Part shown: piece after piece, positions 25,937 through 27,842 of the stretch
Layout of the letters: the number at the start of each line of letters is the position of its first letter
How positions within the stretch are numbered: the stretch's first letter is position 1
From: Saccostrea echinata
Taxonomy: Eukaryota
Length of the DNA: 64,000 nucleotides
NCBI RefSeq assembly: GCF_033153115.1
Contig: NW_026889778.1
Location: 44,206,001-44,270,000 of the forward strand
Reading direction: 5' to 3'
The notes under the pieces: generated by a model
Database searches by the model: none
Seen by the model: the letters and a program-made list of their open reading frames with translations, nothing else
What the model was told of the DNA's origin: nothing
Translations under genes and position numbers: made by a program

Positions 25937-27842
25937 AATAAAGCCATTATACATGTATTTGCGAATGCTAGAACAATGAATACTATCAAAGTTTATATTG
26001 TTATATTTTTGTGCATGATAAATTTCCTGTTTTGTAGAAATGTTGGGGAAGTGTCATTTTCCAAACAGAACGTTCATCTGTTGTCTGAGACAGAACGGAA
26101 ACTGTCCATTCATTCAAAAGAGGGAGAAACTGTGTATCATGATATTTCCGACATCCCGGTTTGTCTTTATTATCATTCATTTGCAAGGCAATCTTTCTGC
26201 GACATTTATTTACTGATGAAAAGAAAATATACATGCAGTTGAAATTTCGAAACTTACTGATTTTTACTTTAGATGGTTGGTATATAGTATTTTTTTATGT
26301 TGCGAAACCGATCATGGAAGACTAGTGGTAGGGCGCCCGCTTCGTGATCGGGAGGCCCAGGTTCGATTCTCGTTCACGGCGCCGCGTCAAACCTAAGACG
26401 TAAACATGGGTAATGACTGTTCCTTCGCCAAGCGCCCGGCACTAGAAGTGAAAGTCAAAAAAGTCAAAAACCGAGGTCCCGTATCACGCTAGCCTTTGGC
26501 ACGATAAAGAACCCTCACTGCTCAATGGCAATGAGTGCCGAGTATAAGTCTAGATTTGAAGCCCTTCACCGGTATATGGTGACGTCTCTATATGAGTGAA
26601 AAATTCTCGAATGGGACGTTAAACAACATACAATCAATCTATCTATTTTGCGGCATCAAATCCCTGTTATTTGTAATAATTATTCCTAAATAAAATCATT
26701 AATTAGAAGTTAAAACATATTGTCTATGAGTAAGCATTCTGTACGTGGCAGTTTTCGATTTATTTTAATATTTTCGATTTAAATTTGAGAATCTCATTGT
26801 TGAAATTTTTATAAAAGTGTCAGAGGACAAAAACCGGAGTTGAAAGGTACATAAATTCAAAACGTAAAGCATCTTCCAAATCTTCTCAAGTTGGAGTTTA
26901 AAAATACCTTAGATACGAAGCAATAATACCAATCATTTGTTATAGTATATGAAGATATTCTAGATTTGTTAATATGTCAAACTCACTGCAAGTACAAATA
27001 AACCAGTGTGTCTTGATAATCTTGCACTAATCTGAAAACAATTACATGGTAAGTTGCAATAAGAAATTCAATTTAAAAAACATGTTTTTGCACTCATTAT
27101 CTGTATGAAGTTGGATTGTGTTAGAAGATTTAACCTGTAAACAATTTATCTATCAGTTTGCCTCTTGCTAATTTAAAATTTAACTCATATCATTTTGCAG
27201 GGTCCATCAAAGGAAAGAGTTATACAATACGGTGTATCTAACCTTCTGATTGATGATTCCCCAGAACAGCGGTATAGCGAGAGTCCAAAAAGCAGTACTA
27301 GTGCTTACGAAAATGGAAGTTCATCATCAGAGTTGTCAGCAAAGAGTGAACCTACCAAGGCGAAAGAAAAGCAAATGTTTGACAAACCTCAGTTTTATCA
27401 TACATTGGCAAGAGATTATAAGGTCAGTTCTGGAAATGTGATCAAACCATCCTGTAAACAAGTAGATTTTACAGATACTGACAATAACCATAAGACAGAA
27501 ACAAAGTCTACTAAGGAAACTAAACAATATTCGGTGTATGAGAGCCCAGTTGGTCAACATCATGTCTCAATTTCTCAGGAAGTAGAACAATTTTCTACCG
27601 ATTTGTCGGATGATACTGTTGAAGATTTGTTAGAAACAGAAGTCAAAGTCTCGGAGAACTTACCCGGTGTTTATCACGCCTTAGAGGAGGAAAAAGGTCG
27701 CTATGTAGAGGAAATGTCGATAGAAATTGAAAGCAAGGCTGATCAAGATAAAAGAAGTTCAAACGGTACTAGTTCTCAGAAGGAATATTACGTGATAATG
27801 GCAAAATCACCAGAGAAAGAAAGCTCCTCTTCTGAGTCTTGA
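23709..27842 (+). CDS. Uncharacterised type I membrane protein (~519 aa): signal peptide, Cys-rich ectodomain, TM helix, long acidic Ser-rich tail with Tyr motifs (gene 1)
   Basis: Exons 23709-23733, 24221-24287, 24463-24560, 24684-24920, 25031-25087, 25176-25328, 25588-25747, 26038-26158 and 27201-27842. All introns are GT-AG, phases 1,2,1,1,1,1,2,0, joining into one open frame. SP MSITSLVHHILSAIIFVIFIVCNA; TM LLFTIGSGGGGLLVGILSTSVTCFLL followed by NKYKK. Confidence 0.88.
25860..25934. repeat. (TC)n microsatellite in intron 7 of gene 1
   Basis: Seen directly. Confidence 0.97.
26307..26646 (+). mobile_element. tRNA-derived SINE (Meta-domain/BivaMeta-like) in intron 8 of gene 1
   Basis: A-box-like actagtggtag, B-box ggttcgattct, core aaaccgaggtcccgt...tggcacgataaagaaccctcactgctc, tail ctcgaatgggacgttaaacaa plus (caat/ctat)n; imperfect TSD ending in ttgcg. 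Confidence 0.85.

What the first reader, a model, noticed from the sequence alone, without database searches (positions are those of the whole stretch)
26038..27842. Gene 1 cytoplasmic tail is a tyrosine-motif platform with an ITSM-like TVYHDI and a thrice-repeated YHxΦ motif
Seen: the ~255-aa acidic, Ser/Glu/Lys-rich tail has no catalytic domain but about a dozen Tyr, including TVYHDI, QFYHTL and GVYHAL (three YHx[I/L]), plus SAYENG, SVYESP, GRYVEEM and KEYYVIM. Established: TxYxx[I/V] is the ITSM consensus, YxxL/I motifs recruit SH2 proteins such as SHP2, and YxN is the Grb2-SH2 preference. Inference: the receptor signals through Src-family phosphorylation and SH2 recruitment.
Basis: partly seen in the sequence, partly recalled or inferred. 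Interest (0 to 1): 0.7.

Follow-up and report, generated by a model that had tools for sequence, protein, structure and literature searches.

The report
Oyster receptor with triple YHxL tail
This spliced oyster gene encodes a predicted cell-surface receptor of an unnamed family whose predicted floppy inner tail keeps three matching tyrosine-histidine motifs across four oyster genera, likely as docking sites for signalling proteins, while the vertebrate-style 'switch' and Grb2 labels first proposed are only partly conserved.

Summary
The 253-aa tail has 12 Tyr and all listed motifs. Spliced contigs from two studies join TM exon to exon 8 to the last exon. Three YHx[IL] motifs exceed chance (P 0.006-0.012 after post-hoc correction). 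Their Tyr are kept in 12 of 12 homologous tails at 39-68% identity, and 17 of 19 tails keep all three motifs exactly. One C. virginica clade keeps little else. The named consensus labels fare worse: the ITSM Thr is in 13 of 19 tails, the Grb2-type YEN Tyr in 7 of 12, GRYV and IQYG in 0 of 12. Gene 1 has no ITIM or ITAM. The gene sits in a tandem cluster (13 ectodomain, 7 tail matches) of an oyster family without a Pfam match. Its ectodomain models as a ferredoxin-like, possibly SEA-like fold (best Z 5.7-6.1, weak), and ectodomain-only, probably secreted paralogs exist. Best reading: a phosphotyrosine docking receptor using a repeated, undescribed Y-H-x-[LI] motif. Phosphorylation, kinase, partner and ligand are all untested.

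The parts
23709..23733 (+). putative first coding exon (ATG, start of signal peptide)
   Evidence: candidate; same length and GT donor in two upstream copies; resembles N-terminus of P0001. Not shown by an RNA joint; one X1 contig runs unspliced across its donor
24221..24287 (+). exon 2, hydrophobic signal peptide
   Evidence: joint to exon 3 in a paralog-like X3 contig
24463..25328 (+). ectodomain exons 3-6 (24463-24560, 24684-24920, 25031-25087, 25176-25328); Cys-rich; homologues model as beta-alpha-beta-beta-alpha-beta ferredoxin-like, possibly SEA-like domain
   Evidence: splice joints; models of P0006 and P0070; fold searches
25588..25747 (+). TM exon (acceptor 25588 seen in X3; a second in-frame AG at 25606); Gly-rich TM about 25647-25724 with GxxxG pattern
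26038..26158 (+). exon 8, membrane-proximal tail
   Evidence: joints at both ends
26093..26119 (+). conserved ERKLSIHSK block, a basic-basic-x-Ser kinase-site pattern (label recalled)
   Evidence: pattern in 16 of 19 tails; R286, S289, I290, S292, K293 invariant in 12 of 12
26129..26146 (+). motif 1 TVYHDI (Y299)
   Evidence: Y, D, I 12 of 12; H 11 of 12; T(-2) 6 of 12, 13 of 19
27201..27842 (+). exon 9, distal tail and stop; predicted disordered
   Evidence: pLDDT under 50 over the tail of homologue P0070
27261..27296 (+). conserved PEQRYSESPKSS block with Y331
   Evidence: best-conserved 10-residue window, 0.93; RYSxSP in 18 of 19
27306..27314 (+). YEN (Y342), Grb2-type YxN, variably kept
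   Evidence: Tyr 7 of 12
27396..27419 (+). motif 2 YHTL (Y372) followed by conserved D378-Y379
   Evidence: Y, H, L, D 12 of 12; Y379 11 of 12
27537..27548 (+). YESP (Y419), YExP type
   Evidence: Tyr 11 of 12; YExP in 13 of 19
27672..27683 (+). motif 3 YHAL (Y464)
   Evidence: Y, H 12 of 12; L 11 of 12
27786..27800 (+). C-terminal YYVIM (Y502/Y503), variably kept
   Evidence: Y502 8 of 12, Y503 4 of 12; YxxM in 4 of 19

Best explanation
Gene 1 is a spliced oyster gene for a predicted single-pass surface receptor whose predicted disordered tail keeps three Y-H-x-[L/I] motifs under strong conservation, which likely are phosphorylated by a cytoplasmic tyrosine kinase and likely bind copies of one SH2-domain partner. 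Shown: gene structure, splicing, motif content and conservation. Predicted: disorder of the tail and a ferredoxin/SEA-like ectodomain. Inferred: ligand binding clusters the receptor (conserved GxxxG-type TM); a Src-family or similar kinase phosphorylates the motifs (usually hydrophobic -1 residue, acidic run before motif 1); three like motifs spaced 73-76 and 63-95 residues apart recruit the same reader multivalently. YExP and YEN would be optional extra sites for Nck/Crk-type and Grb2-type adaptors (preferences recalled). The sign of the signal (inhibitory or activating) cannot be read from the sequence. Ectodomain-only paralogs would act as soluble ligand binders or decoys.
For: All three Tyr invariant in 12 of 12 tails from Saccostrea, Ostrea and Crassostrea-type sequences at 39-68% identity. 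The nine Y/H/+3 columns average 0.99 identity against about 0.40 for same-class columns; 0 of 200,000 draws reached that. 17 of 19 tails have three exact YHx[LI]; the other two differ at one residue. C. virginica P0091/P0092/P0095 have only 4-5 tail Tyr and keep the three YH motifs plus RYSESP. Among four genomic copies dN/dS is 0.33 at the motif windows, 0.12 in conserved blocks and 0.70 in the rest of the tail (few sites, pairs not independent). Y+3 hydrophobic is the shared core of ITIM/ITSM SH2 docking sites (PMC8631942, passages). The genome has at least 49 SH2 matches, including pieces most like SHP2, Grb2, Syk/ZAP-70 and Csk. An oyster receptor tail recruiting an SH2 enzyme is reported (CgNCAM1-CgSHIP2, PMC11841013, passages).
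Against: No phosphorylation or binding data. The conserved columns were picked after seeing the motif, and the sequences are related, so the permutation figure is not a clean probability. An equally conserved Ser-rich block (PEQRYSESPKSS, ERKLSIHSK) suggests Ser-kinase control matters as much. Gene 1 has no canonical ITIM or ITAM. In human PD-1, polar or charged pY+1 residues failed to recruit SHP1 (PMC8631942; His was not among the residues in the passages seen), so an invariant His is not what known inhibitory motifs favour. YxxL/I is also the unphosphorylated AP-adaptor sorting signal (recalled).
Confidence: 0.62

Rival explanations
1. The three motifs are unphosphorylated YxxPhi sorting signals that bind AP-complex mu subunits and drive endocytosis or lysosomal routing of a scavenging receptor.
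For: All three fit YxxPhi (consensus recalled). Repeated signals in a disordered tail are compatible with this, and the ectodomain's best structural neighbour is a domain of the sorting receptor SorCS2 (Z 5.7-6.1, weak).
Against: Sorting signals (recalled) do not need an invariant His at +1 three times or near-fixed 73-76 spacing. Further conserved Tyr (Y331, Y379, Y419) lack a +3 bulky hydrophobic residue and fit signalling better.
Confidence: 0.15
2. One reading: TVYHDI is a true ITSM that recruits SHP2, and YEN recruits Grb2, as in vertebrate PD-1/SLAM receptors.
For: Exact match to TxYxxV/I (PMC8631942). Thr(-2) is in 13 of 19 tails across Saccostrea, Magallana and one C. virginica clade. 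SHP2-like and Grb2-like SH2 pieces are in the genome.
Against: Thr is replaced by Pro or Ala in 6 of 19 tails while YHDI stays. Motifs 2 and 3 have Gln, Gly, Ser, Asn, Lys or Glu at -2 yet are equally conserved. The YEN Tyr is kept in 7 of 12. A single TxYxx[IV] arises by chance at P=0.08.
Confidence: 0.12
3. The Tyr-His pair is read by a non-SH2, phosphorylation-independent partner, or His makes binding pH- or metal-dependent.
For: His is as invariant as Tyr (35 of 36 positions). No paper describing such a motif was found in one search of six spellings (4 listed papers, titles unrelated).
Against: No candidate partner was identified, and SH2 selectivity at +1 explains the His without new chemistry.
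Confidence: 0.08
4. The motifs are leftovers of an old internal duplication with no function.
For: Motifs 2 and 3 share a near-identical context in Ostrea (QVYHTL twice), which suggests a duplicated origin.
Against: The flanks diverged to 0.16-0.33 identity while the motif columns stay at 0.99; dN/dS is lower at the motifs.
Confidence: 0.03

Closest known systems
Uncharacterised oyster proteins LOC134258062 (Saccostrea cucullata), LOC130048285/LOC125654063-5 (Ostrea edulis), LOC111110429/LOC111110508/LOC111110035 (Crassostrea virginica) and Magallana gigas records
   Same: Same family: same ectodomain, TM and YH triplet
   Different: All are unnamed. A full-text search of six of the LOC ids found 0 papers.
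ITSM/ITIM receptors (PD-1, BTLA, SLAM family)
   Same: Non-catalytic tail with Yxx[I/L] motifs; motif 1 matches TxYxx[V/I] (PMC8631942, passages)
   Different: No Ig domain; no ITIM in gene 1; -2 position not fixed; invariant His at +1; three motifs 73 and 92 residues apart
Botryllus fester co-receptors (FcoR; PMC12582321, passages)
   Same: Clustered invertebrate multigene family of type I proteins with non-canonical 'core' YxxI/L/V motifs, some repeated at near-fixed spacing, of unknown function
   Different: No homology shown or tested; their paired core-2 is [A/D]VYxxV at 29-33 spacing; no allorecognition evidence for the oyster cluster
CgNCAM1 of Pacific oyster (PMC11841013, passages)
   Same: Oyster TM receptor whose tyrosine tail is reported to engage an SH2 enzyme (CgSHIP2)
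   Different: Ig/FN3 ectodomain and two ITIMs
SEA and SEA-like ectodomains (Trop2/EpCAM C-domain, MUC16 SEA, GPR126 SEA; SorCS2 SoMP domain)
   Same: Ferredoxin-like alpha/beta sandwich outside the cell. Best rows in two models: SorCS2 Z 5.7 and 6.1 (rmsd 3.2, 90-91 aligned), Trop2 Z 4.7 and 6.0, MUC16 SEA5 Z 4.5 and 5.3
   Different: Z under 8 and tied with ribosomal S6, ACT and RRM domains; no Pfam SEA hit; followed by a Cys-rich segment; no GSVVV-type site seen in the hairpin

Membership tests
ITSM receptor | TxYxx[V/I] in a cytoplasmic tail | tested here: met
   TVYHDI; chance P=0.08
ITSM receptor | Thr(-2) conserved as a motif determinant | tested here: inconclusive
   13 of 19 tails; Pro in 3 Ostrea, Ala in 3 others
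ITSM receptor | Switch between SH2D1A/B adaptors and SHP1/2 | not tested
   SHP2-like SH2 present. Only 4 of 49 SH2 matches were named; no SH2D1A search was made. That these adaptors are vertebrate-specific is recalled.
ITIM receptor | [S/I/V/L]xYxx[I/V/L] motif | tested here: not met
   0 in gene 1; present in 6 of 19 family tails
ITAM receptor | Yxx[L/I]x6-9Yxx[L/I] | tested here: not met
   0 in gene 1; 1 of 19, in a divergent C-terminus
Non-catalytic tyrosine-phosphorylated receptor | Single TM and disordered non-enzymatic tail with conserved Tyr motifs | tested here: met
Non-catalytic tyrosine-phosphorylated receptor | Tyr phosphorylation on ligand binding and SH2 recruitment | not testable with these tools
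   needs experiment
SEA/SEA-like domain | Extracellular beta-alpha-beta-beta-alpha-beta ferredoxin fold | tested here: inconclusive
   Topology in two models of 28%-identical homologues; Z 5.7-6.1, not clear of unrelated folds; Foldseek no hit at E<=0.001
SEA/SEA-like domain | Sequence match to Pfam SEA | tested here: not met
   No SEA family among hits for six proteins at E<=1; divergent SEA-like domains are recognised by structure (PMC6586460, passages)
SUEL/rhamnose-binding lectin | SUEL domain match | tested here: inconclusive
   Atlas feature scores 0.76-0.79, below the 0.9 mark; no Pfam SUEL hit; no lectin row in the fold searches shown

The most novel reading that the evidence does not exclude
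An oyster-specific, fast-duplicating cluster of SEA-like recognition receptors that signal through a new class of phosphotyrosine motif (pY-H-x-L/I, repeated three times) read by a dedicated SH2 protein. They are paired with ectodomain-only modules that are secreted as decoys or, in the boldest form, spliced onto a shared downstream TM-and-tail unit like variable exons.
Probability: 0.2. Interest if true: 0.75.

Novelty: new variant of a known kind. Interest (0 to 1): 0.45.

Why it matters
It turns an anonymous oyster gene cluster into a testable receptor family. The conserved signalling unit is three short peptides, so a phosphopeptide pull-down could name the partner and show how a non-canonical tyrosine motif works in an invertebrate. 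The mix of membrane and ectodomain-only copies, broken copies and lineage-specific duplication resembles immune recognition clusters, which matters for oyster disease biology. No immune role is shown here.

Tried and rejected
Homodimer prediction of the P0006 ectodomain gave no verdict (score 0.00, alignment not used). Laying contigs on the ectodomain-only copy just upstream of the window showed no joint or loose end after its last ectodomain exon; a repeat filled the tables, so its splicing is unresolved. The tool listed no holder on record as RNA. The paralog-like X1/X3 contig differences matched none of six genomic copies fully. Pfam gave no hit over cut-off; Foldseek gave no hit at E<=0.001. 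The SUEL-lectin lead stayed below 0.9. A furin-type RQRR in the predicted hairpin is in gene 1 but in none of the 15 other hairpins listed, so it was rejected as a family feature. The YxN tally includes juxtamembrane hits and was not used. Literature: searches found nothing on this family or motif; two papers asked for by recalled id were not held. No earlier finding near this place or by sequence. Rows left out of the counts: truncated or broken tails (copies at C29:44.081 and 43.975 Mb, P0005) and partial tails (P0019, P0038, P0026 were aligned but not counted; other tail-only fragments were not counted). Supplements of papers were not read.

Full report
Gene model. The finding covers the last two exons of a nine-exon plus-strand gene. 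Exons 2-9 have canonical AG/GT ends and one open frame. With a putative 25-nt ATG exon and the 25588 acceptor the protein is 520 aa: signal peptide, Cys-rich ectodomain of about 200 aa, a Gly-rich TM segment (peak hydropathy 1.73, modest) and a tail of about 260 aa. Contigs of public runs show GT..AG joints at every junction from exon 2 to exon 9. The two that matter are 25747>26038 (X1, X4) and 26158>27201 (X1, X3, X4); four runs were laid, from two samples and two studies, and the tool only guesses they are RNA. The exon 2-3 joint comes from a paralog-like contig. Exon 1 is not joined by any contig, and one contig runs across its donor; it rests on homology.

Observation. From exon 8 on the tail has 253 residues, 12 Tyr, 43 Ser, 47 acidic and 30 basic. 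In 200,000 shuffles three YHx[ILV] arose with P=2e-5; correcting for having chosen His afterwards gives 0.006-0.012. The single motifs (TxYxxI, YxN, YxxP, YxxM) are each within chance (P 0.08-0.39).

Family. Homologue searches gave 2, 4, 44 and 31 hits. Every species name seen is an oyster: Saccostrea cucullata, Ostrea edulis, Crassostrea virginica, Magallana (Crassostrea) gigas. I looked up 20 of the 44 representatives; many are unnamed assembly fragments, so restriction to oysters is likely but not shown. In the own genome one ectodomain exon matched 13 places and the last exon 8 pieces at 7 places, all on contig C29 between 43.45 and 44.41 Mb. Mapping 464 kb showed four copies with TM and a long open tail (gene 1; 43.99; 44.09; 44.40 Mb, the last with a shifted C-terminus), one with a tail but no TM exon found (44.13), two with broken tails (43.97, 44.08), and five ectodomain-only copies (44.02, 44.11, 44.17, 44.18, 44.20). 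A sixth ectodomain-only copy at 43.45 Mb has no TM or tail match in the 30 kb fetched. The 44.18 Mb copy has all six ectodomain exons at gene 1's lengths with canonical sites and ends in a phase-1 donor; read through, it stops after a few codons. Ectodomain-only proteins of 211-233 aa are annotated in C. virginica, M. gigas and S. cucullata, and the 216-aa M. gigas one recurs in seven Logan records on contigs of 930-1020 nt. Secreted members are therefore likely. Whether the upstream copies splice to gene 1's TM exon is unresolved.

Against 12 other full tails (39-68% identity for four sampled), Y299, Y372 and Y464 are kept 12 of 12; His(+1) 11, 12 and 12 of 12; the +3 residue 12, 12 and 11 of 12. 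These nine columns average 0.99 against about 0.40 for aromatic, His and aliphatic columns elsewhere in the tail; 0 of 200,000 class-matched draws reached this (related sequences and post-hoc columns, so indicative only). With six more proteins, 17 of 19 tails carry three exact YHx[LI], spaced 73-76 and 63-95 residues. Three C. virginica proteins have only 4-5 tail Tyr and retain exactly the triplet and RYSESP, so this is the core. Y331, Y379 and Y419 are kept 11 of 12; Y502 8; Y342 (YEN) 7; Y416 5; Y503 4; Y316 and Y474 0 of 12. The ITSM-defining Thr is in 13 of 19 tails, with Pro in Ostrea and Ala in three others. Among four genomic copies dN/dS is 0.33 at motif windows, 0.12 in these blocks (which include motif 1) and 0.70 elsewhere in the tail (small counts).

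Structure. AlphaFold models of two homologues that are 28% identical (P0006: pLDDT 73.8, pTM 0.68; P0070: core blocks 71-88) give the same beta-alpha-beta-beta-alpha-beta order. The P0070 tail is under 50 apart from two short stretches. Gene 1 itself was not folded. Foldseek found nothing at E<=0.001. The wide search ranked the SorCS2 membrane-proximal domain first both times (Z 5.7 and 6.1, rmsd 3.2, 90-91 aligned), with Trop2 (4.7, 6.0) and MUC16 SEA (4.5, 5.3) in both lists and GPR126 (5.0) in the first, tied with ribosomal S6, ACT and RRM domains. SEA domains are extracellular ferredoxin folds of low sequence conservation and Trop2 is counted among SEA-like receptors (PMC6586460, passages); the SorCS2 paper calls its domain RRM-like (PMC6065357, passages). 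SEA-like is a reasonable but unproven label. The ligand is unknown.

Mechanism. Shown: a spliced gene for a predicted type I membrane protein with three selected Y-H-x-[L/I] motifs. Inferred: phosphorylation by a cytoplasmic tyrosine kinase and multivalent docking of one SH2 reader. The genome has at least 49 SH2 matches; the four I named are most like Csk, SHP2, Grb2 and Syk/ZAP-70. The motif is not an ITIM or ITAM in gene 1, and the pY+1 residue is known to gate partner choice in ITIMs (PMC8631942, passages), so the invariant His probably selects a partner that cannot be named from vertebrate consensus rules. The main rival is AP-adaptor sorting through YxxPhi.

Comparison and novelty. Tyrosine-motif receptors are known in oysters (CgNCAM1-SHIP2; PMC11841013, passages), and clustered invertebrate receptors with unexplained core tyrosine motifs are known in Botryllus (PMC12582321, passages). 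This family has no Pfam match, six of its gene ids appear in no paper searched, and six spellings of the motif gave four papers with unrelated titles (listing only). The library lacks most subscription papers. Interest 0.45.

Noticed in passing
window 38630-43226 (+): Gene 2: divergent paralog with a similar exon layout; its ectodomain exon matches the family profile (hhalign probability 77%, E 2e-5). Its short tail has different Tyr motifs (KIYEDC, AAYLEV, DYIYVE) and no YH motif. No close copy elsewhere in the genome. A candidate paired receptor.
   Followed up: partly
G000:C29:44170000-44205600 and window 1-21000: Three tandem partial duplicates, each with upstream DNA, ectodomain exons 1-6 and shared downstream sequence but no TM exon, lie directly before gene 1. 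The nearest two differ from gene 1 in exon 4 mostly by non-synonymous changes (pN 0.027-0.035, pS 0.011-0.022; very few sites).
   Followed up: partly
window 26320-26643: High-copy repeat in intron 8 with tRNA-like box sequences, probably a SINE; very deep contig cover.
   Followed up: no
window 24788-24799: RQRR furin-type site in the predicted beta2-beta3 hairpin of gene 1 and some Saccostrea-type genomic copies, absent from the named homologues.
   Followed up: partly
window 24461-24903: X1 and X3 contigs about 10% different from gene 1 match none of six genomic copies fully, hinting at allelic or copy-number diversity.
   Followed up: partly
window 21851-22240, 46074-46673, 51040-51591, 53525-54130, 57207-57975: Fragments that look like retroelement and DDE-transposase remnants in the ORF lists (labels recalled, not searched).
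   Followed up: no
window 60145-61352: Tandemly repeated sequence giving long open frames, probably a satellite or repeat element.
   Followed up: no
P0001: The S. cucullata record is a 1165-aa model that appears to fuse a partial ectodomain and two neighbouring receptor genes.
   Followed up: no
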